From a virus (Duplodnaviria; Heunggongvirae; Uroviricota; Caudoviricetes): a stretch of DNA of 15,331 bases. Shown in pieces: positions 1-12,419 of this stretch; within the stretch, counting starts at the first letter, position 1, and each line of letters opens with the position of its first letter. The stretch lies in the IMG/VR virus record IMGVR_UViG_2706794665_000015; one strand, given 5' to 3'. Under the pieces are notes generated by a model that made no database searches, had not been told where the DNA came from, and was given only the letters and a program-made list of their open reading frames with translations. Made by a program: the position numbers and the translations under genes.

Positions 1-1131
1 TCAAATGACCAGTTTTTTCCACTCCTTACCGCGTACATCGTTGTAAATATCGGTCATTTTTTGATTCGAATGGCCTAGCAAAATTTTGGTATCAACCCCC
101 TGCTCTCTGAACAATCGCTCTGATAAAGATCTCTGCTCATGGAAAGAGGGTGGGGTGCCATTAGCACGCCAGTTGTAATCCACAGAATCCCGGGCTTTTT
201 TAAATGCAACGGTTAATGTTGCTGGCTTAACCATCCCGCCGCGCTTAGCTGTCCCTTTCGCGTGATGGTGGTGCAATAGCCACGGACTAAGAACGCAATC
301 GCGGCAGGATGACACTACATCATCCAGGGTGAGATTTAATTTATCGCAACGCAGAGCCAGAGGGATGGCAATCCGGGTTCCTGTTTTTTGCTGTTCGACA
401 TGAAGATAACCATCCCGGATATCCGAAAATTGCATTTTGCAAATATCTGAAAGGCGCTGGCCTGTCATCAGTGCCAGCAGCATACCGCGCTGTAAAAAGT
501 AACCATTCTTTTCCGCTGCGTTATAAATCATCATCCACTCATCAAAAGTCAGTCGCTGTCTTGATATCCGCACCTGCGGTTTTTTTGCCGATTCTGCAGG
601 GTTAAAGCCTGGCGGGACATCGCCCGTTTGCTGAGCTTCCCGGAAAACATCGATCAGTACTTTCCTGAAAATTTGTCCCATTCTGTTATGTCCTCTGGCC
701 TTGTACTCTTCCAGTACTGATACCACATCTTTTACGGTTATGGCATCTAACGGTCTGGTGCCAAAACGTTCATCAAATACCCTGAGAGGGGCCGCTTTCT
801 GTTTCAGCGTGTTGAGTTTGATCTCGCCGTTTTCATATCTTTCCTGTTGAATTTTTCTGTAATTATTCAGAAAAATGGTAACGGTTGATGAACCGCCGGT
901 ATCACTAATAATTTTCTCCTGCAGACTGAGCATTTGTTCCATTTGCTGCCGGGCAAGACGGCTGTTCGCTTCTGCTGCAATAGTTTCTGCCAGTTTCTGG
1001 TCAATACTGCCGAGACCGTGATTTTTGCCTGTTATGGGATGCCTGTAACGCCAGTAAACTTTGTTATTTCTTTTGTCAAAATACGGAGATAATCCCGGAA
1101 CATCGGTTTTATATTTTCGCGGGCGCGCCAT
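1..1131 (-). CDS. int: Phage tyrosine integrase (site-specific recombinase), complete; stop codon is the first three bases of the window
   Basis: 376-aa ORF; C-terminal region has the tyrosine-recombinase pattern (LGHSNQKMTDIYNDV with the catalytic Tyr context, upstream HHH...R cluster); sits at the prophage end next to an excisionase-like gene as in lambdoid int-xis modules. Confidence 0.9.
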   Translation of the reverse strand: MARPRKYKTDVPGLSPYFDKRNNKVYWRYRHPITGKNHGLGSIDQKLAETIAAEANSRLARQQMEQMLSLQEKIISDTGGSSTVTIFLNNYRKIQQERYENGEIKLNTLKQKAAPLRVFDERFGTRPLDAITVKDVVSVLEEYKARGHNRMGQIFRKVLIDVFREAQQTGDVPPGFNPAESAKKPQVRISRQRLTFDEWMMIYNAAEKNGYFLQRGMLLALMTGQRLSDICKMQFSDIRDGYLHVEQQKTGTRIAIPLALRCDKLNLTLDDVVSSCRDCVLSPWLLHHHHAKGTAKRGGMVKPATLTVAFKKARDSVDYNWRANGTPPSFHEQRSLSERLFREQGVDTKILLGHSNQKMTDIYNDVRGKEWKKLVI

Positions 1132-1421: not shown

Positions 1422-3893
1422 TTAAAAATCAGCCTGATTTGGGATCAGTTTTTGCCAGATAGCTGAAACGTATTTTGCCTGGTAACGGGCGTCATCAAGT
1501 GCATTATGGCGCTCACCTTCGAATGGAATAGCCGTTCTGGCATCGAAGTCTATGGCTTTCCCCAGCTCAACGATTGTGCGTACATCGCGATCGTTGTAGT
1601 AACGCCACGGGCAGGGGATCCCCTGCCGTTCGTATGAACGGCGCAAAATCGTGTTGTCGAAGTTGGCTCCATTTCCCCAAACCTGAACAAAAAATTCACC
1701 GGAGTTTTCGTCGATAAATTCCCGCAATTGTAACAGTGCATCATCTAACGGGATTTCATCGGTCATAATGGCAGATTGCGCTTCGCGTGATTGCTTAAGC
1801 CACCATTTAATGGTGTCCCGATCAATGACTCCGCCAGCAGTTTCCAGATCGATAGTCTTACTAAATTCCGGTCCCATATCTCCGGTTTGCGGATCGAAAA
1901 ATATTGCACCTATTGAGATGATCGGGGCATCAGGATTTTTTCCCATGGTTTCAAGGTCGATCATTAGATGGTCACACGTCCTGCTGGTGGATGTGATTTC
2001 TTGATGACCGTTCACCTTAATTGAGTGATCTGCCGTCTCGCCAGTTTCATTATCGCTATCGTGATGCTGATTGCCGCCAGTGTTCTCCTTGTGTGGATGT
2101 TCAGCGCCTTCCATTTCCTCCGGATCATCTTCCTGAACTTCAGGCTGATACTCTTCATCGAATGTTTCCTGGTATGTTGCGTCGCCCATTACCGCGCCAC
2201 AATCAGGGCAGTTGCCGCCGCCGGTCTGACCGCAGGCGGTGCAGACTTTTTCCACTTCCTGTTGCGCCACTGATTCAGGCTGTTTCGTTTCTGGCTCGTT
2301 TTGTAACGCATTTGGGCTGTTTTGTTCCGCTTTCTGGTCGTTCTGTTCCGTTTCTTGCTGGTTCTGGTTCACAGAATCGCGGGTCTGGTTCCCCTTAACC
2401 CATTTCGGATCATTCGGGTCGCTAATCCCTTCAACAAATTCACCACGTGATACTGCAAGCAGTTCATCGGCGTCAGGCTGGCTGATATTGGCTGCCTGCA
2501 TAATTTTGTTTACTTCGTCAGCGGTAACTTTTACTGACCCTGGTTGTGCGGTCGTGTCAGATGCACCAGTATTTTGTTGTGAACCTGAGTATGTACCGTT
2601 TTTGCGGGCGAAATATTCTTCTTTCGTGATTTCAGTAGCCCCGGCAGACAGCGCCTTATCCAGACCAGAAAGTTTGTTTGCGCGACCGTATTTTTCGCCA
2701 TCCTTGTCGGTGAAGAGGAAGTAGAACGGCCCCTCACGTTCTACAGATGGTTCGACTTCCACTTTGCATTCGGTTTTTTCGTTGTCCGGAATTGCCGTTT
2801 CCACTGCATCAGTTTCTGGTACTGGCGACGAGAGAGTATCAGTTGCGCTCTGATTTGTTCCTTCATCTTCAAACACGCCCTTTGTAGTCAGGTATTCAGT
2901 AATGTATTTGTTCAGTGCCACAGGGTCTTTGTGAATGTCGATCGGACGTTCACGGACAAGGCCAAAAATAGTCTGGCGGTCGTAGCGAAGGGCATCAGGC
3001 TGTTTGCGCATTGATGCCGAGATACGCTTCCAGTCTTCGCGGTCGTTGTCGATAACTTCATTTTTTGCCCAGCGATGGATGCTGCCGTCAATGTTTCCGG
3101 CATCCACATCACCAGGCCAGAGAGCGTAGGCCAGTTCGTCATCCAGTGTTTTCCATGTCTGCTTGTATTCGCGATGAATGGCAGCAATGACCGGGTTGAT
3201 TTTTCCTGTTGAATTTTCAGTGTGCTGTTGATTGGCTCTGGCGCGGGCGAGATCAACAACAGACGTGTATTTTCCGGCTTCCTTGCGTTCACCTTCGCGA
3301 CGTTTTTTCCAGATGCGCATCTCTGCCTGAATTTCGGGCCATTTGGCACCAGGCTTACATTTATGCTTAACCCACCCGATGGCATGCAGCTTAAGCTCCG
3401 GATACATGGCGTTAACTTCTGGCATTTTCATCAACGCTTCAACGATATGTCCGTCGAATGTTGCCATGTCTTCCTGCAACAGTTCCTGCGCGCTAATCAC
3501 CATATCAACGGTGATGTTTTCACATGTGTCGAACTTAACCATGACAGCGTTCTGTACTTCAGGGGCCAGCTTGTCAAAAGTGACGTTCATCGGATCTGAT
3601 TCAGTCTCAACCGGGACAAAGGAAGCAGACGCCTCATCCCAGCGGTTTTCCTGCATATATTCAGCATCCCAGGAATCTAGGGCAGGGCGGGGTATACCGG
3701 GTTTATCCTCGCAGACAAGAAATTTATAAGCGCAGTCCTGAGCAGCCGGATAATGTTCCAGGAATTGCCAGTGAAATTTTGCGCGGGCGCGACGTTCATC
3801 ACCGGCTTCAATGGCAGTGGCTACAGCGACTGCACCTTCTTCCTTTATTGCCTGTTCGTCCGGAATGGCGGCGCAAATAAAGACTTTACTCAT
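1422..3893 (-). CDS. Prophage exonuclease, 823 aa: N-terminal domain of unknown function, acidic low-complexity linker with a Cys4 ribbon, C-terminal DEDDh (DnaQ-like) 3'-5' exonuclease domain
   Basis: Long ORF with GAGGT about 8 nt upstream of the ATG at 3893. C-terminal residues show Exo I (MIDLETMG) and Exo III (HNALDDARY) motifs of DEDDh exonucleases. Cys4 motif CTACGQTGGGNCPDCG is encoded near 2181-2250. Position between xis and dicB/ydfD matches the exonuclease slot of Qin-like prophages. Confidence 0.85.
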   Translation of the reverse strand: MSKVFICAAIPDEQAIKEEGAVAVATAIEAGDERRARAKFHWQFLEHYPAAQDCAYKFLVCEDKPGIPRPALDSWDAEYMQENRWDEASASFVPVETESDPMNVTFDKLAPEVQNAVMVKFDTCENITVDMVISAQELLQEDMATFDGHIVEALMKMPEVNAMYPELKLHAIGWVKHKCKPGAKWPEIQAEMRIWKKRREGERKEAGKYTSVVDLARARANQQHTENSTGKINPVIAAIHREYKQTWKTLDDELAYALWPGDVDAGNIDGSIHRWAKNEVIDNDREDWKRISASMRKQPDALRYDRQTIFGLVRERPIDIHKDPVALNKYITEYLTTKGVFEDEGTNQSATDTLSSPVPETDAVETAIPDNEKTECKVEVEPSVEREGPFYFLFTDKDGEKYGRANKLSGLDKALSAGATEITKEEYFARKNGTYSGSQQNTGASDTTAQPGSVKVTADEVNKIMQAANISQPDADELLAVSRGEFVEGISDPNDPKWVKGNQTRDSVNQNQQETEQNDQKAEQNSPNALQNEPETKQPESVAQQEVEKVCTACGQTGGGNCPDCGAVMGDATYQETFDEEYQPEVQEDDPEEMEGAEHPHKENTGGNQHHDSDNETGETADHSIKVNGHQEITSTSRTCDHLMIDLETMGKNPDAPIISIGAIFFDPQTGDMGPEFSKTIDLETAGGVIDRDTIKWWLKQSREAQSAIMTDEIPLDDALLQLREFIDENSGEFFVQVWGNGANFDNTILRRSYERQGIPCPWRYYNDRDVRTIVELGKAIDFDARTAIPFEGERHNALDDARYQAKYVSAIWQKLIPNQADF

Positions 3894-4536: not shown

Positions 4537-4589
4537 GGGCGGCAGAGCAGTCACGGAGTAAAACTGATACCGCCAAACGTCACCAGAAA
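4537..4589 (-). ncRNA. dicF: DicF small regulatory RNA (53 nt; known to repress ftsZ and other mRNAs)
   Basis: Reverse complement of 4537-4589 is TTTCTGGTGACGTTTGGCGGTATCAGTTTTACTCCGTGACTGCTCTGCCGCCC, identical to the DicF sequence as I recall it, followed on the minus strand by TTTTT (plus 4532-4536). Confidence 0.85.
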
Positions 4590-5913: not shown

Positions 5914-6321
5914 TTACTGATGTTTGTTACGTTTGCGAGCTTCTAGTAGCTCGGTGAATAGGCGATTAAAATTCTCAACGCGGGCACGGAGTTCGCTGAT
6001 TTGTGCTTGCTGCTCTGATTTTGGAAGTGCGCGATACAATCGCAACATCTCCAACTCATCTTCCGATAAGTCTAAGGCGCTGTTGAGTGCTACTGGTGGA
6101 TCTGGTGTTTTATCCTCGTCACCAAACAGTATCCAAGTTGGTGAACATTGCAATACCTCAGCCAGGCGATGCAAATTTTGCCCGCGCGGGGCTGTATGGT
6201 CGCTTTCCCATAGTGAAATTGATGAGCCAGATACGCCAGCGGCTTTGCTTAAATCGTTTTGACTTAAACCAACCTGTTTGCGTCTTTCTCTAATTCGTTG
6301 ACCTAAAGTTTTCTCGTTCAT
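5914..6321 (-). CDS. dicA: DicA-like prophage repressor (HTH XRE family, 135 aa, no peptidase domain)
   Basis: N-terminal HTH (QRIRERRKQVGLSQNDLSKAAGVSGSSISLWE) and overall similarity to E. coli DicA as recalled (…LQCSPTWILFGDEDK…RARVENFNRLFTELL); divergent from a Cro-like gene. Confidence 0.85.
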   Translation of the reverse strand: MNEKTLGQRIRERRKQVGLSQNDLSKAAGVSGSSISLWESDHTAPRGQNLHRLAEVLQCSPTWILFGDEDKTPDPPVALNSALDLSEDELEMLRLYRALPKSEQQAQISELRARVENFNRLFTELLEARKRNKHQ

Positions 6322-6342
6322 ATTTAGATATCTTAATAACCC

Positions 6343-6373
6343 TTGACTTGAGATTCCTTGAATGATTACTATT
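6343..6373 (+). promoter_or_regulatory. Putative rightward promoter for dicC/early-right operon: -35 TTGACT (6343-6348), weak -10 around 6366-6373
   Basis: Consensus-like -35 in the dicA-dicC intergenic region; the -10 candidates (TTACTA / TACTAT) are weak and abut the operator. Confidence 0.4.
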
Positions 6374-6385
6374 GAGAAAACTCAA
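6372..6385 (+). promoter_or_regulatory. Operator (perfect 14-bp palindrome TTGAGAAAACTCAA) at the rightward promoter
   Basis: Perfect dyad TTGAG-AAAA-CTCAA between the -10 region and the dicC RBS; two further copies occur at the leftward promoter. Confidence 0.55.
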
Positions 6386-6398
6386 CTTTGGAGGGGTG

Positions 6399-6626
6399 AT
6401 GTTTAAATCAGACGTAATTAATTTTTATGGGACGAAAGCCAAAGTAGCGAAAGCTGCTGGTGTTGATCCATCTGCTGTTTCTCAATGGGGGGAACTGGTT
6501 CCTGAAGGTCGCGCGATGCGCCTGCAAGAGGCATCCGGCGGGGAACTTCAGTACGACCCCAAAGTTTATGACGAATATCGTAAGGCAAAGCGGGCGGGGC
6601 GGTTGAACAATGAAAATCACCCCTGA
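6399..6626 (+). CDS. dicC: DicC-like (Cro analog) small regulator, 75 aa
   Basis: ATG at 6399 preceded by GGAGG (6390-6394); the track's TTG start at 6372 lies inside the operator. The product (…VPEGRAMRLQEASGGELQYDPKVYDEYRK…) matches my recollection of DicC; divergent from dicA. Confidence 0.75.
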   Translation: MFKSDVINFYGTKAKVAKAAGVDPSAVSQWGELVPEGRAMRLQEASGGELQYDPKVYDEYRKAKRAGRLNNENHP

Positions 6627-7161
6627 ACAGGTTTGTGAGGCTCTGGATGCCTGGGTATGTCGACCAGGAATGACACAGGAGCAAGCGACGATATTAATCA
6701 CGGAAGCATTCTGGGCTCTGAAAGAACGCCCGAACATCGATGTTCAACGCGTCACGTTTAATGATGGCGAGGTTGATCAACGGGCGCTGGGCGTTAACCG
6801 GGTGAAGATATTCGAACGCTGGAAAGCTATCGACACCAGGGATAAGCGGAAAAAATTCACGGCGCTGATTCCGGCAATTATGGAGGCTATCCGAATTAGT
6901 GATTTCAGGTTGTATCGTGAGATCAGTGATGGAAAAAGCATTACGTACATGATCGCCGGATTAAACAAAGAATATGGCGATGTGGTGGAGTCCGGGCTGC
7001 TTTTTGCGGATCCAGCTGTTGTGGAACGTGAGACTGACGAGCTTATAGAAAAAGCTATTGCTTTCAAGCATGCGTATCGTCAGCAATATCAATATTACTT
7101 TGCAGATAAACAAATGTCTGCCAGGGGTTTGTATGAGTATCGATGCACTACGATGGGCTAA
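6610..7161 (+). CDS. Hypothetical early protein (183 aa) in the post-cro position
   Basis: ORF starts 17 nt before the dicC stop (coupled) and continues into the replication gene; position corresponds to CII/YdaT-type regulators in related prophages. No motif I can assign. Confidence 0.55.
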   Translation: MKITPEQVCEALDAWVCRPGMTQEQATILITEAFWALKERPNIDVQRVTFNDGEVDQRALGVNRVKIFERWKAIDTRDKRKKFTALIPAIMEAIRISDFRLYREISDGKSITYMIAGLNKEYGDVVESGLLFADPAVVERETDELIEKAIAFKHAYRQQYQYYFADKQMSARGLYEYRCTTMG

Positions 7162-8173
7162 AAAGGTGAAAACCGGCAGTTCATCCAGTAAGTCTGTATT
7201 GACCTGGCTTGCTGATATGTGCGGTGCCGATTTGTGTGCATACCCGTCTGTATCTGCACTGGCAGAAGTAACGGAACTAAACAAAAAGACTGTGCAGGAC
7301 AGCTTACGACACCTGATGGAGATTGGGTTAATTGTTGATACCGGTGAGAGAAAAGGCAGAACAAAGCAAATTGTGGTGTACCGACTTATCGGTGTAGAAG
7401 AAAGTGTTGCCGAGCCTGAATACACCCAAAAACGGGAGTCTTTAAAGGTGGGTAAAATTGGTGCTGTTAATAAAAACAGTACCGAAAATGGTTATGTTTC
7501 AGCACAAAACAGACCCAAAAACGGAACTCTTAGCTGCATGGAAAATAACCAAAGACACCCAAATTTTCCATCAAAGACACCCAAAAACGGATCACGGAAC
7601 CCAAAGGAACCCAAAGATCTAAACCCCACACATAACGCACGCGAGAGTGCTCCGACCAGTGAGCAGGAAGTTTTGTCGTTACAGGCAGCACCCCTTGTAT
7701 TCCTGGATGGCCTGAGCGAACCCATCGGAAAATTTCCGATGACCGATAGCTGGTATCCGTCACGGGATTTTCGACGACGGGCTGCGTTGTGGGGGATGGC
7801 TTTGCCGGAGACAGAATTTACACCTGCTGAACTTGCCGCCTTCCGGGACTACTGGGCAGCGGAGGGGAAAGTGTTTACGCAGATTCAGTGGGAGCAGAAA
7901 TTCGCCCGTCACGTAAATCACGTCAGGGCGCAGGTTAAACCAGTCAGCAAGGGGGTAAACCATGCAGCAGCACCAGGTGGCACCGCATCACGGGCAGTTC
8001 AGGAAATTCGGGCAGCACGTGAGCAGTGGGAACGTGAAAACGGATTTATCAGCGACGGAAACGGTCTGGAAGCTGTGGGAACTCATGGGGGAGGTTTATT
8101 CGAACCGCTGGACCCAGAAGAACGGGGCCGCACCTTCGAAGCTCTGGATTGCACAGATTGGCGCGATGACTGA
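7133..8173 (+). CDS. Replication initiator (lambda O functional analog): N-terminal winged-helix domain, Pro/Lys/Asn-rich linker, C-terminal DnaT-like domain
   Basis: Start taken at MSIDALRWAKK (ATG 7133) within track ORF 7058..8173. N-terminal wHTH-like segment and a C-terminal DnaT-like motif region (…FTPAELAAFRDYWAAEGKVFTQIQWEQKFARHV…). The linker coding region carries iteron-like repeats. Confidence 0.75.
   Translation: MSIDALRWAKKVKTGSSSSKSVLTWLADMCGADLCAYPSVSALAEVTELNKKTVQDSLRHLMEIGLIVDTGERKGRTKQIVVYRLIGVEESVAEPEYTQKRESLKVGKIGAVNKNSTENGYVSAQNRPKNGTLSCMENNQRHPNFPSKTPKNGSRNPKEPKDLNPTHNARESAPTSEQEVLSLQAAPLVFLDGLSEPIGKFPMTDSWYPSRDFRRRAALWGMALPETEFTPAELAAFRDYWAAEGKVFTQIQWEQKFARHVNHVRAQVKPVSKGVNHAAAPGGTASRAVQEIRAAREQWERENGFISDGNGLEAVGTHGGGLFEPLDPEERGRTFEALDCTDWRDD
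7509..7620. repeat. Iteron-like direct repeats (core ACCCAAA, five copies) inside the initiator gene; candidate origin of replication
   Basis: ACCCAAA(A/G) at about 7513, 7557, 7579, 7600 and 7610, spaced in multiples of roughly 10-11 bp (44, 22, 21, 10); two longer copies GACACCCAAA...; falls in the linker region, as ori-lambda falls inside O. Confidence 0.5.
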
Positions 8174-8627
8174 GCAGCAAATCCGACAGGTCTGCCGCCA
8201 GTGCATGGACCGCTGCCGGGCGGGTGAAACATGGCCTCCGAACCTGGCTGAGTTTGTGGCGCTGATTTCAGAAAGCGGGGCCAATCCATTTGGCCTGACG
8301 GTGGATGCTGTGATGGAGGAGTACCGCCGCTGGCGTGATGAGTCCTGGCGATATGACGGAAGCGACAAATATCCGTGGCCTCAGCCTGTGCTGTACCACA
8401 TCTGCCTCGAAATGCGTACCAGAGGGATTGAGCGCCAGATGACGCAGGGTGAGTTAAAACGACTTGCGGAACGGCAACTGACGAAATGGGCAAAGCATGT
8501 TGGTAACGGGATGAGTGTTCCGCCAGTGCGACGACAACTGGAAGGGGCGAAACACCCGCAAGGGCCAACGCCAATTGAACGGCTGAAACAGGAATACGAA
8601 CGCCGGAAGGCAGCTGGTTTTATTTGA
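7962..8627 (+). CDS. Lambda-P-like replication protein (helicase loader), 221 aa
   Basis: C-terminal two-thirds align by eye with lambda P (YPWPQPVLYH… vs YPWKSNAHYW…; …ELKRLAERQL… vs …ELRRKAADEL…). ATG at 7962 has a G-rich RBS (GGGGG at 7951-7955). Overlaps the initiator ORF by 212 nt in another frame. Confidence 0.75.
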   Translation: MQQHQVAPHHGQFRKFGQHVSSGNVKTDLSATETVWKLWELMGEVYSNRWTQKNGAAPSKLWIAQIGAMTEQQIRQVCRQCMDRCRAGETWPPNLAEFVALISESGANPFGLTVDAVMEEYRRWRDESWRYDGSDKYPWPQPVLYHICLEMRTRGIERQMTQGELKRLAERQLTKWAKHVGNGMSVPPVRRQLEGAKHPQGPTPIERLKQEYERRKAAGFI

Positions 8628-8660
8628 ATCTGAGAAACGATTTTGTCGGAGGAAATTTTA

Positions 8661-8878
8661 ATGGAAACCGTATTTGACGCACTGAAAGCAATGGGAAAAG
8701 CCACATCGGTAGAACTGGCCGCGCGACTTGATATCAGTCGTGAAGAGGTTCTCAACGAGCTGTGGGAACTCAAAAGAAATGACGTCGTTGATAAAACTGG
8801 TCACACCTGGTTTCTGGCTGGCGAAGGTGAATCCCGGGTAACCGAAGAGCGGCCAGTAAAATCTGAAGCACAGGATAT
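8661..8878 (+). CDS. Hypothetical winged-helix-like protein, 3' end lost in the N run
   Basis: ATG at 8661 preceded by GGAGG (8649-8653); reading frame runs into the gap at 8879. Confidence 0.5.
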
Positions 8879-9153
8879 NNNNNNNNNNNNNNNNNNNNNN
8901 NNNNNNNNNNNNNNNNNNNNNNNNNNNNNNNNNNNNNNNNNNNNNNNNNNNNNNNNNNNNNNNNNNNNNNNNNNNNNNNNNNNNNNNNNNNNNNNNNNNN
9001 NNNNNNNNNNNNNNNNNNNNNNNNNNNNNNNNNNNNNNNNNNNNNNNNNNNNNNNNNNNNNNNNNNNNNNNNNNNNNNNNNNNNNNNNNNNNNNNNNNNN
9101 NNNNNNNNNNNNNNNNNNNNNNNNNNNNNNNNNNNNNNNNNNNNNNNNNNNNN
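8879..9153. other. Run of 275 N (assembly gap or masked sequence)
   Basis: Uninterrupted N characters; true length and content unknown. Confidence 1.
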
Positions 9154-12240: not shown

Positions 12241-12359
12241 AACTGCGGGTGCTTGAGGCTATCTGTCTCAGGCATGAACACCAAAAGGCAGATAGAGAAA
12301 AGCCCCAGTTAACATTACGCGTCCTGCAAGACGCTTAACATTAATCTGAGGCCATATCT

Positions 12360-12419
12360 ATGCGACACATAGAGATTAGCCTCTTACGGACCGAAAGGTC
12401 AAGGAGAAGCAGGCTATGA
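12360..12419 (+). CDS. Short upstream ORF (19 codons) ending in ATGA overlap with hok; mok-like coupling element
   Basis: ATG at 12360 with GAGG upstream; its TGA (12417-12419) overlaps the hok ATG (12416-12418). Confidence 0.3.
   Translation: MRHIEISLLRTERSRRSRL

What the first reader, a model, noticed from the sequence alone, without database searches (positions are those of the whole stretch)
7509..7620. Iteron cluster inside the initiator gene: candidate origin of replication
Five copies of an ACCCAAA(A/G) core spaced at helical-repeat multiples lie in the DNA encoding the low-complexity linker between the wHTH and DnaT-like domains of the O-like protein. This mirrors ori-lambda inside gene O, and the adjacent sequence is moderately A+T-rich.
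Basis: partly seen in the sequence, partly recalled or inferred. Interest (0 to 1): 0.5.

Follow-up and report, generated by a model that had tools for sequence, protein, structure and literature searches.

The report
Prophage replication origin inside initiator gene
A cluster of short DNA repeats inside the replication-initiator gene of an E. coli lambda-like prophage is very probably the phage's replication origin, built on the same plan as the classical lambda origin, so it is a well-supported but ordinary kind of feature.

Summary
The repeats are real and not chance. All six ACCCAAA copies in the 15.3-kb window lie at 7424-7615 on the + strand.

The actual unit is an 11-mer, CCC(A/G)AAAACGG. 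There are three exact copies (7425, 7514, 7580; 0.01 expected), one near copy (7481) and two degenerate or palindromic sites (7451, 7558).

The conservation is on the DNA, not the peptide:
- The 11-mer is read in several reading frames, within this gene and between relatives.
- Proline in the repeat is always CCC: 25/25, against 9/116 elsewhere in the genes.
- Core columns are 90% identical across six clades, against 53% for the rest of the linker and about 40% at third codon positions.

The array lies in a predicted disordered linker, between a winged-helix domain and a DnaT-like domain. It is inherited together with the winged-helix half.

A DNA-only scan of viral contigs found the terminal repeat 120 times. 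In 115 of these a homologous winged-helix domain is encoded just upstream.

A lambda-P-like helicase loader gene follows. This matches ori-lambda inside gene O.

No replication experiment exists, and no clear A+T-rich unwinding element was found.

Verdict: new member of a known kind; moderate-to-low interest.

The parts
7133..8173 (+). Replication initiator gene (346 aa). It has a winged-helix N-domain (aa 1-90, nt 7133-7402), a disordered linker (aa 91-194, nt 7403-7714) and a DnaT-like ssDNA-binding domain (aa 197-267, nt 7721-7933).
   Evidence: Translation. Pfam DnaT 61.5 bits; HTH_36 20.8 bits, below its cut-off. PHROG 1032 'replication initiation protein' E=1.7e-90. PDB DnaT E=1.6e-19. 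AlphaFold2 pLDDT is 80-90 for aa 1-90 and below 50 for aa 91-194.
7425..7435 (+). Iteron 1, CCCAAAAACGG, read as T-Q-K-R.
   Evidence: Exact match. It is at the conserved position, nt 293 of the gene, in all 11 close relatives. Pairwise identity among clades is 0.92.
7451..7461 (+). Degenerate iteron site, GGTAAAATTGG.
   Evidence: It aligns with the perfect CCCAAAAACGG of the Edwardsiella, Serratia and Enterobacter relatives.
7481..7491 (+). Near-consensus iteron, ACCGAAAATGG.
   Evidence: Two mismatches to the core. It aligns with ACCGAAAACGG in relatives; identity 0.81.
7514..7524 (+). Iteron, CCCAAAAACGG, read as P-K-N-G.
   Evidence: Exact match. Identity among clades is 0.89. It is polymorphic in E. 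coli: 7523 G>A in 18 of 80 copies and 7522 C>T in 3 of 80.
7558..7569 (+). Palindromic variant site, CCCAAATTTTCC.
   Evidence: It aligns with CCCAATTTTGG (Edwardsiella clade) and with an inverted copy CCCGTTTTTTCC / CCGTTTTTCCC (Kluyvera and Enterobacter).
7580..7601 (+). Terminal iteron plus conserved flank, CCCAAAAACGG-ATCAC-GGAACC.
   Evidence: The core is invariant in all 11 close relatives. The composite CCCRAAAACGG-N5-RGAAYC is also conserved in phiV10 and Vibrio phage Her; Ab105-2phi and AP22 keep the RGAAYC flank behind a CCAATTTTGG/CCCAAATTTGG variant core. It retrieved 120 viral contigs by DNA alone, 115 of them with a winged-helix domain encoded upstream.
7596..7615 (+). Second repeat class: two tandem decamers, GGAACCCAAA.
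   Evidence: Tandem Repeats Finder: period 10, 2.1 copies, 100% match. Between one and three GAAYC pentamers follow the last iteron in 13 of 14 relatives, against 0.1-0.2 expected per locus.
7616..7635 (+). GATCT plus the junction sequence AAACCCCACACATAA. This is the mosaic boundary between the N-terminal/iteron module and the C-terminal module.
   Evidence: BLAST breakpoints fall at gene nt 481-489 from both sides. The junction sequence is shared with the Rac-SA53 and TL-2011b initiators, which have unrelated N-termini.
7439..7510 (.). The most A+T-rich and least stable stretch of the gene. It is a candidate unwinding region, with weak support.
   Evidence: 70% A+T. The least stable 50-mer of the gene starts at 7453 (z=2.1 against the window).
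8166..8627 (+). Lambda-P-like helicase loader gene. Its start overlaps the initiator stop codon.
   Evidence: Pfam Phage_lambda_P E=3.4e-16. The ATG at 8166 is in frame with ORF 7962-8627.
6343..6372 (+). pR-like promoter of the cro / ydaT-like / initiator / P-like operon. Its transcription would run through the iterons.
   Evidence: Promoter scan, 9/12 match. The Cro-like, YdaT-like and repressor genes are identified by Pfam.

Best explanation
The region 7421-7620 is the replication origin of this lambda-like (Rac/PPompW-type) prophage, embedded in the initiator gene it depends on.

Proposed mechanism, with each step marked as shown or inferred:
1. Transcription from the pR-like promoter expresses the initiator and the P-like loader. 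The gene order and promoter match are shown; the expression is inferred.
2. The N-terminal winged-helix domain of the initiator binds the CCC(A/G)AAAACGG iterons that lie in the DNA encoding its own disordered linker. This is inferred from strict co-occurrence and co-inheritance. The core is pseudo-palindromic (CCC-A5-GG, with CCCAAATTTGGG variants in relatives), which suggests binding as a dimer.
3. The A-tract-containing iterons, phased at about 11 bp, are assembled into a bent, O-some-like nucleoprotein complex. This is inferred.
4. Nearby DNA is unwound. Where this happens is uncertain. Candidates are the 70% A+T patch at 7439-7510 and the conserved terminal composite with the GAACC decamers at 7580-7615.
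5. The C-terminal DnaT-like ssDNA-binding domain and the downstream lambda-P-like protein bring in host DnaB. This is inferred from domain homology and from the lambda O-P paradigm.
For: 1. Non-random cluster: three exact 11-mers against 0.01 expected, all in one orientation within 166 bp; all six ACCCAAA copies of the window are here.
2. DNA-level selection: the motif is read in two to three frames within and between relatives. Synonymous sites are fixed (Pro CCC 25/25 against 9/116, p=1.5e-20). Core identity is 0.90 against 0.53 for other linker columns, and only 1 of 5000 random block sets reaches it. Third-codon identity in the winged-helix part is only 0.34-0.45.
3. No protein-structure constraint: the encoded peptide is predicted disordered (pLDDT below 50, aa 91-194).
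4. Family-wide architecture: winged-helix relatives at 35-42% identity (Bcep176, AP22, Ab105-2phi, Vibrio Her, phiV10, Mcat8) all carry direct-repeat arrays at the same place. All but Mcat8 have a CCNAAAWWNGG-like core. Periods include 17 and 22 bp, which are not multiples of 3.
5. Reverse test: a DNA-only scan for the terminal composite found 120 viral contigs. In 115 a homologous winged-helix domain ends 30-210 nt upstream on the same strand.
6. Modularity as in lambda: the winged-helix half plus iterons recombines as a unit with different C-terminal domains: DnaT here and in phiV10, Phg_2220_C in EPP-1, unrecognised ones elsewhere. The breakpoint is at 7613-7621.
7. In one relative (L103) the winged-helix ORF stops inside the array and the repeats continue past the stop codon.
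8. Context: a P-like loader gene immediately downstream and a pR-like promoter upstream.
9. The lambda iterons ATCCCTCAAAACGAGGGA sit at the equivalent place in gene O, are also read in three frames, and share the CCC-AAAAC-GGG look.
Against: 1. There is no experimental evidence of binding or replication for this element or, as far as the searchable literature shows, for any member of this initiator family.
2. There is no clear A+T-rich unwinding element beside the array. The best patch is only 70% A+T (z=2.1) and lies between iterons. The DNA downstream of the last iteron is about 50% G+C.
3. Two of the six iteron positions are degenerate in this prophage. The 7514 iteron carries a core SNP in 21 of 80 E. 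coli copies. SNP density in the cores is no lower than in the spacers at this shallow depth. The element could therefore be decaying in a cryptic prophage.
4. The initiator is not a Pfam Phage_rep_O member. Profile comparison with lambda O is only weakly suggestive (E=0.028), so the lambda parallel is an analogy in architecture, not demonstrated homology.
Confidence: 0.72

Rival explanations
1. The sites are initiator-binding sites, but they are not the origin. They would serve autoregulation, copy control or handcuffing, or exclusion of related phages, and replication would start somewhere else in the prophage.
For: The comparative evidence shows a conserved DNA element linked to the winged-helix domain, but it does not show where unwinding occurs. 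No convincing A+T-rich element adjoins the array. The most A+T-rich DNA in 6200-8700 is the immunity/promoter region at about 6290-6440.
Against: In the experimentally studied systems with this layout (ori-lambda in O, Stx phages; PMC7466680), the in-gene iterons are the origin. The array is kept even where the reading frame is broken or the ORF ends. The terminal iteron has a conserved flank and a second repeat class, which suggests more than simple operator function.
Confidence: 0.12
2. The element is a relic origin. The array was the origin of an ancestral phage but no longer functions in this E. coli prophage lineage.
For: Two of the six positions are degenerate compared with the Edwardsiella-type arrays. 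Core SNPs affect iteron 7514 in 21 of 80 copies, and SNPs are not depleted in the cores. Variants exist with a 66-bp deletion between iterons 7514 and 7580, and with frameshifted or truncated initiators.
Against: The gene is intact here and in about 1,900 member sequences at 97% identity. Three perfect copies and one near-perfect copy remain. Lambda needs only two iterons plus the adjacent region in vitro (PMC7466680). Iterons 7425 and 7580 are invariant in all 80 E. coli copies.
Confidence: 0.08
3. The repeat is a peptide repeat in a low-complexity linker (PKNG-type). The DNA repeats would be a by-product of recent duplication or slippage.
For: xNGxV-like peptide repeats recur in relatives, and many spacings are multiples of 3: 18, 24, 33 and 66 bp, 78% of all spacings. 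A-runs are prone to slippage.
Against: The motif is read in different frames within the gene and between clades. Synonymous sites are fixed. Spacers have diverged while cores have not. The linker is predicted disordered. In L103 the repeats continue beyond the ORF. Periods of 17 and 22 bp occur in Bcep176.
Confidence: 0.04
4. The repeats are binding sites for another protein (the YdaT/CII-like regulator or a host factor), or a recombination 'linker' that promotes module exchange.
For: A YdaT-like gene lies just upstream. A mosaic breakpoint lies at the end of the array.
Against: The motif follows the winged-helix domain into genomes whose upstream neighbours carry no YdaT annotation or called YdaT domain: phiV10, Vibrio Her, AP22, Ab105-2phi (record annotations). 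In the DNA-only scan, 115 of 120 hits have the winged-helix domain upstream. The sequence shared across different N-terminal modules is the junction AAACCCCACACATA, not the iterons.
Confidence: 0.04

Closest known systems
ori-lambda inside gene O of phage lambda, and the six-iteron origins of Stx phages 933W and P27
   Same: - Direct-repeat iterons lie inside the initiator gene, directly after the DNA-binding domain: lambda gene nt 349-433 of 900, here nt 293-458 of 1041.
- The iterons are read in several frames as a low-complexity linker.
- The iterons contain A-tracts and are about 2-4 helical turns apart.
- The N-terminal half plus iterons forms a specificity module, joined to a C-terminal half that pairs with a P-type loader encoded immediately downstream.
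- The gene lies in the pR operon.
- Even the core looks similar: lambda TCCCTCAAAACGAGGGA against CCCAAAAACGG(G).

   Different: - The initiator N-domain is Pfam HTH_36-like, not Phage_rep_O; hhalign against lambda O gives only E=0.028.
- The iteron core is 11-12 bp rather than an 18-19-bp inverted repeat.
- The C-terminal domain is DnaT-like.
- There is no distinct 40-bp A+T-rich tract downstream. Instead there is a conserved terminal composite and GAACC tandem decamers.
RepA_N plasmid replicons of Gram-positive bacteria (pSK41, pAD1 type; structures 4PQL, 5KBJ, 4PTA)
   Same: The origin iterons lie within the central part of the initiator's own coding sequence (from my own knowledge of the RepA_N literature, not checked here). 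The winged-helix N-domain binds them and the C-terminal domain recruits host replication proteins (also from my own knowledge, not checked here). These structures appear among the fold matches of the N-domain.
   Different: There is no sequence-level membership (no RepA_N Pfam hit). The fold match is weak (E about 0.02, TM about 0.45) and no better than to generic winged-helix regulators. The hosts and the element type (plasmids) differ.
Phage 'replisome organizer' origins inside the initiator gene (SPP1 G38P/oriL; lactococcal TP901-1 and Tuc2009 rep)
   Same: In these systems too, repeats bound by the N-terminal domain of the initiator sit inside the initiator gene of a temperate or virulent phage (from my own knowledge; not tested here). 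Weak PHROG hits to DnaD-like loaders and replisome organizers were found.
   Different: The initiator families and repeat sequences differ. Nothing here was compared directly with those origins.
Rac prophage replication region (ydaS-ydaT-ydaU-ydaV, oriJ)
   Same: The gene order is the same: repressor / Cro-like / YdaT-like / initiator with a DnaT-like C-domain. The C-terminal half is 90% identical in DNA to Rac-SA53 ydaU. Rac is reported to have an active origin, oriJ (PMC3945230).
   Different: Rac ydaU has a DUF1376 N-domain and no CCCAAAAACGG repeats. The position of oriJ is not annotated in the K-12 record, so the two could not be compared.

Membership tests
Lambda-type origin embedded in the initiator gene (architecture) | Several direct-repeat iterons lie inside the initiator ORF, just downstream of the DNA-binding domain coding region. 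| tested here: met
   Three exact copies, one near copy and two degenerate copies at codons 98-153, after the winged-helix domain (aa 1-90).
Lambda-type origin embedded in the initiator gene (architecture) | The repeats are conserved as DNA, independently of the encoded peptide. | tested here: met
   Read in several frames, fixed synonymous sites, and cores 0.90 against spacers 0.53.
Lambda-type origin embedded in the initiator gene (architecture) | The iterons and the N-terminal DNA-binding half are inherited as one specificity module. | tested here: met
   Breakpoints at gene nt 481-489 from both sides. Different C-domains sit behind the same winged-helix/iteron unit. In the DNA-only scan, 115 of 120 hits have the winged-helix domain upstream.
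Lambda-type origin embedded in the initiator gene (architecture) | An A+T-rich unwinding region lies directly beside the iterons. | tested here: inconclusive
   There is only a 70% A+T patch (z=2.1), within the array at 7439-7510. The DNA after the last iteron is not A+T-rich.
Lambda-type origin embedded in the initiator gene (architecture) | A helicase-loader gene (P type) lies immediately downstream of the initiator. | tested here: met
   Pfam Phage_lambda_P E=3.4e-16 for ORF 7962-8627, which contains 8166-8627.
Lambda-type origin embedded in the initiator gene (architecture) | The initiator binds the iterons, and the fragment supports initiator-dependent replication. | not testable with these tools
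   This needs EMSA or footprinting and a replication assay.
Pfam Phage_rep_O (PF04492), the lambda O protein family | Sequence match to the family profile. | tested here: not met
   No PF04492 hit at E<=0.01, whereas lambda O scores 123 bits. hhalign of the winged-helix profile against lambda O: E=0.028, probability 1.8%. PHROG 'O-like' families are hit only weakly, at 1e-8 to 1e-12.
HTH_36 (PF13730) winged-helix phage initiators / PHROG 1032 | Sequence match to the family profile. | tested here: met
   PHROG 1032 E=1.7e-90 over aa 1-298. Pfam HTH_36 scores 20.8 bits here, below the 25-bit cut-off. Relatives at 35-72% identity score 30-47 bits.
HTH_36 (PF13730) winged-helix phage initiators / PHROG 1032 | Winged-helix fold. 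| tested here: met
   AlphaFold2 gives four helices (H3-11, H17-29, H40-47, H51-64) and a beta-hairpin wing (E67-69, E83-85), with pLDDT 80-90. Foldseek hits are to winged-helix proteins.
DnaT C-terminal ssDNA-binding domain (PF17948) | Sequence and fold match. | tested here: met
   Pfam 61.5 bits against a cut-off of 25. PDB 6AEP E=1.6e-19. Foldseek 6AEQ TM 0.90, rmsd 1.1.
RepA_N plasmid initiators | Sequence match to the RepA_N domain. | tested here: not met
   No Pfam hit. There is only weak fold similarity to 4PQL and 5KBJ (E about 0.02).

The most novel reading that the evidence does not exclude
The evidence does not exclude a broader reading. The array may be one instance of an ancient, so far undescribed origin design shared by a very large family of HTH_36-type phage initiators in Gamma- and Betaproteobacteria (E. 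coli, Klebsiella, Edwardsiella, Vibrio, Acinetobacter, Burkholderia). The design would have three parts: iterons with a common CCN-A/T5-NGG core; a conserved terminal composite, CCCRAAAACGG-N5-RGAAYC; and a second class of GAACC-initiated 10-13-mers that would mark the site of strand opening. The lambda iteron (CCCTCAAAACGAGGG) would then be a diverged relative of the same initiator-origin pair.
Probability: 0.3. Interest if true: 0.5.

Novelty: new member of a known kind. Interest (0 to 1): 0.33.

Why it matters
It gives a concrete, testable origin for a replication module that is very common in enterobacterial prophages. The module includes the PPompW prophages that sit in tandem with Stx2a phages, and the non-lambdoid 'Eru'-type replication units of Stx phages. 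For these units the paper checked here (PMC8951638) mentions neither iterons nor an origin of replication.

It also supplies a simple DNA signature, CCCRAAAACGG-N5-RGAAYC downstream of an HTH_36 domain. That signature could be used to annotate origins in many phage genomes. The cloned iterons might also serve as origin decoys or as compatibility markers.

Conceptually it only extends the lambda paradigm. It does not change it.

Tried and rejected
- Peptide-repeat explanation: rejected on frame, synonymous-site and spacer evidence.
The last two are a separate tandem decamer that relatives do not conserve as ACCCAAA.
- Looking for a classical A+T-rich unwinding element next to the array by 40-bp A+T content and nearest-neighbour stability: only a weak patch inside the array was found.
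- DnaA box at the junction CCACACATAA: checked by eye, no match.
- oriC-like 13-mer at GATCT (7616-7620): three mismatches out of 11 specified positions, and the GATC is broken by SNPs in 10 of 80 E. coli copies. Not pursued.
- Population-level purifying selection on the cores within E. coli: no signal. Two of 17 SNP positions fall in the 33 core bases, with 2.4 expected.
- Viral-contig scan with the protein alignment: returned only 98-100% identical copies, so it was useless for divergence analysis.
- First protein search with aa 1-100: returned mainly truncated or partial proteins.
- Literature: no paper in the searchable library contains CCCAAAAACGG as an iteron. Searches for iterons with DnaT or PF13730 gave no description of this origin.
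- The position of Rac oriJ could not be retrieved: it is not annotated in NC_000913 and the primary papers are not in the library.
- Homology of the winged-helix domain to lambda O: the profile comparison is not significant.
- The idea that the GAACC repeats are targets of the DnaT-like domain: disfavoured, because they also occur with non-DnaT C-termini.
- Rfam: no RNA family in the region.
Full report
**Context.** The window is the early region of a lambda-like E. coli prophage. The initiator gene is 98.9% identical to that of the PPompW prophages found next to Stx2a phages. The gene order is:
- integrase, 1-1131 (-), and an exonuclease, 1422-3893 (-);
- CI-type repressor, 5914-6321 (-);
- Cro/YdaS-like gene, 6372-6626;
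- YdaT-like gene, 6610-7161;
- a 346-aa initiator, 7133-8173;
- a lambda-P-like gene, 8166-8627.

A pR-like promoter lies at 6343-6372. This is the layout of the Rac prophage replication region.

**The observation.**
- ACCCAAA occurs six times in the 15.3 kb. All six are on the + strand between 7424 and 7615.
One of these (7557) is followed by T rather than A/G.
- A sixth exact ACCCAAAA lies upstream at 7424.
- Spacings are 89, 44, 22, 20 and 10 bp.
- AA periodicity at 11.0 bp is in the top 0.3% of equal-length stretches of the window.

**The actual repeat unit.** The unit becomes clear only with relatives. It is the 11-mer CCC(A/G)AAAACGG.
- It has three exact copies, at 7425, 7514 and 7580. 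The expectation is 0.01, and 0 of 200 shuffles reach three.
- There is a near copy, ACCGAAAATGG, at 7481.
- Two further sites, 7451 GGTAAAATTGG and 7558 CCCAAATTTTCC, align with good or inverted copies in relatives.

Eleven relatives with 57-67% amino-acid identity over aa 1-165 were collected from Kluyvera, Scandinavium, Enterobacter, Edwardsiella, Plesiomonas and Serratia genomes and from Edwardsiella phage EPP-1.
- In all of them the 11-mer recurs at conserved positions of the gene: nt 293, 319, 352, 385/403, 436 and 458/478.
- The copy at nt 293 is read T-Q-K-R. The middle ones are read P-K/E-N-G.
- The terminal block CCCAAAAACGGGATCCGGAATCTA is read PKNG in one clade and (P/T)QKR in the other. 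The DNA is kept while the frame differs.
- In Klebsiella-type copies with frameshifts, the same DNA is even read in the third frame.
- Selecting by peptide ([PT][KE]NG), Pro is CCC in 25/25 cases against 9/116 elsewhere in the same genes (p=1.5e-20). Lys is AAA 21/21 and Asn is AAC 35/36. The Gly third base, just outside the core, varies.
- Among six clade representatives the core columns are 90% identical, against 53% for the other linker columns. Only 1 of 5000 random block sets reaches this.
- Third codon positions in the winged-helix part are only 34-45% identical.
- The encoded peptide (aa 91-194) is predicted disordered, whereas the flanking domains are confidently folded.

The peptide explanation is therefore rejected.

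**Link to the initiator's DNA-binding domain.**
- The N-domain (aa 1-90) is a winged helix. It matches PHROG families of replication initiators, including weak matches to 'O-like' ones.
- BLAST shows that gene nt 1-483 is shared with phage EPP-1, whose C-terminal domain is different (Phg_2220_C).
- Gene nt 481/489-1041 is shared with Rac-SA53, TL-2011b and others. Their N-termini are unrelated and they lack the repeats.
- The winged-helix domain plus repeats therefore forms one exchangeable module. Its boundary is at 7613-7621.
- More distant winged-helix relatives (35-42% identity) are Burkholderia Bcep176, Acinetobacter AP22 and Ab105-2phi, Vibrio phage Her, E. coli phiV10 and Moraxella Mcat8. 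All have direct-repeat arrays at the same place. All except Mcat8 have a CCNAAAWWNGG-like core. Periods include 17 and 22 bp.
- In a metagenomic relative (L103) the winged-helix ORF ends inside the array and the repeats continue past the stop codon.
- As a reverse test, I scanned viral contigs for the DNA pattern CCCRAAAACGG-N5-RGAAYC alone. In 115 of the 120 loci returned, a homologous winged-helix domain ends 30-210 nt upstream on the same strand. Its identity to the window ranges from 30 to 100%. The loci carry one to seven iteron copies, and 22% of the spacings are not multiples of three.

**Comparison with lambda.**
- In lambda the four annotated iterons lie at gene nt 349-433 of O, directly after the DNA-binding part. 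They are read in three frames as a low-complexity peptide, and the P gene follows.
- The origin is described as iterons plus an A+T-rich tract in the middle of O. Stx phages have six iterons (PMC7466680).
- The present element matches this plan point by point. Even the core resembles the lambda iteron: TCCCTCAAAACGAGGGA against CCCAAAAACGG(G).
- It is not a member of the lambda O protein family. There is no Phage_rep_O hit, and the profile comparison with lambda O is not significant.
- The C-terminal domain is a DnaT-type ssDNA-binding domain.

**What remains weak.**
- No obvious unwinding element flanks the array. The least stable part of the gene (7439-7510, 70% A+T, z=2.1) lies between iterons, and the DNA after the last iteron is not A+T-rich.
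- All relatives instead share a conserved flank to the terminal iteron, and most follow it with two or three GAAYC-initiated 10-13-mers. In the window these are the two GGAACCCAAA decamers. Their role is unknown. They occur with DnaT and with non-DnaT C-termini alike, so they belong to the N-terminal/iteron module.
- Within E. coli, iteron 7514 carries core SNPs in 21 of 80 copies, and SNPs are not depleted in the cores.
- Rare variants have lost the 66 bp between iterons 7514 and 7580.
- No experiment on this origin type was found.

**Verdict.** The interpretation as an origin inside the initiator gene is supported by strong comparative evidence, and function remains to be shown. It is a new member of a known kind. 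It is useful for annotation and for work on Stx-associated prophages, but it is not surprising.

Noticed in passing
window 8879-9153: A run of 275 N (masked or unsequenced) interrupts the region downstream of the P-like gene. ORFs listed across it are artefacts.
   Followed up: no
window 4537-4588 (-): A full-length match to the DicF antisense RNA family (76.7 bits against a gathering score of 48), as in Qin/Rac-type prophages.
   Followed up: no
window 12247-12418 (+): A full-length match to the sok antitoxin RNA (106.7 bits), which implies a hok/sok-type toxin-antitoxin locus in the prophage.
   Followed up: no
window 2280-2366: A 21-bp tandem repeat, 4.1 copies at 70% match, inside the 823-aa exonuclease-domain ORF (1422-3893, - strand).
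   Followed up: no
window 7596-7615; L096 1970-2010; L097 1808-1850; L095 1904-1940; L094 1868-1895: A second class of repeats, GAAYC-initiated 10-13-mers (two or three in most relatives), directly follows the last iteron in relatives from E. coli to Vibrio and Acinetobacter. In the window, phiV10 and Vibrio phage Her the terminal iteron plus flank fits CCCRAAAACGG-N5-RGAAYC; the Acinetobacter phages keep the flank behind a variant core. Function unknown; it may mark the opening site.
   Followed up: partly
window 7616-7640; L002 about 3005-3030; L003 about 3000-3025: The junction sequence AAACCCCACACATA(A/G)C is shared by initiators with three unrelated N-terminal domains (HTH_36 here, DUF1376-type in Rac-SA53, another in TL-2011b). 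It coincides with the mosaic breakpoint. In Rac-SA53 and TL-2011b it is preceded by very A+T-rich DNA.
   Followed up: partly
P0002, P0004, P0005, P0007, P0008; L100 2771-3120; L101 2294-2840: Many database copies of the initiator are truncated at about 160-170 aa by frameshifts in the A-runs of the iteron region, and the DnaT-like part continues in another frame. These could be pseudogenes of defective prophages or homopolymer sequencing errors. The iteron DNA is retained.
   Followed up: partly
P0033, P0037 (E. coli/Shigella); window 7514-7580: Rare variants lack exactly 22 aa (66 bp) between the two iterons at 7514 and 7580, as expected from recombination between direct repeats.
   Followed up: partly
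window 7522-7523: In 80 near-identical IMG/VR copies, 18 carry G>A at 7523 and 3 carry C>T at 7522, inside the core of the 7514 iteron. Iterons 7425 and 7580 are invariant.
   Followed up: yes
window 7538-7546 and 7563-7571: A perfect 9-nt inverted repeat, ATGGAAAAT / ATTTTCCAT, brackets the 5' part of the palindromic variant site (7558-7569); its right arm overlaps the rest of that site.
   Followed up: no
L103 2790-2945: In a metagenomic relative (53% identity in the winged-helix domain) the winged-helix ORF is only 126 aa. Five AGTCCCAACAAYNNC repeats straddle its stop codon and the start of the next ORF.
   Followed up: partly
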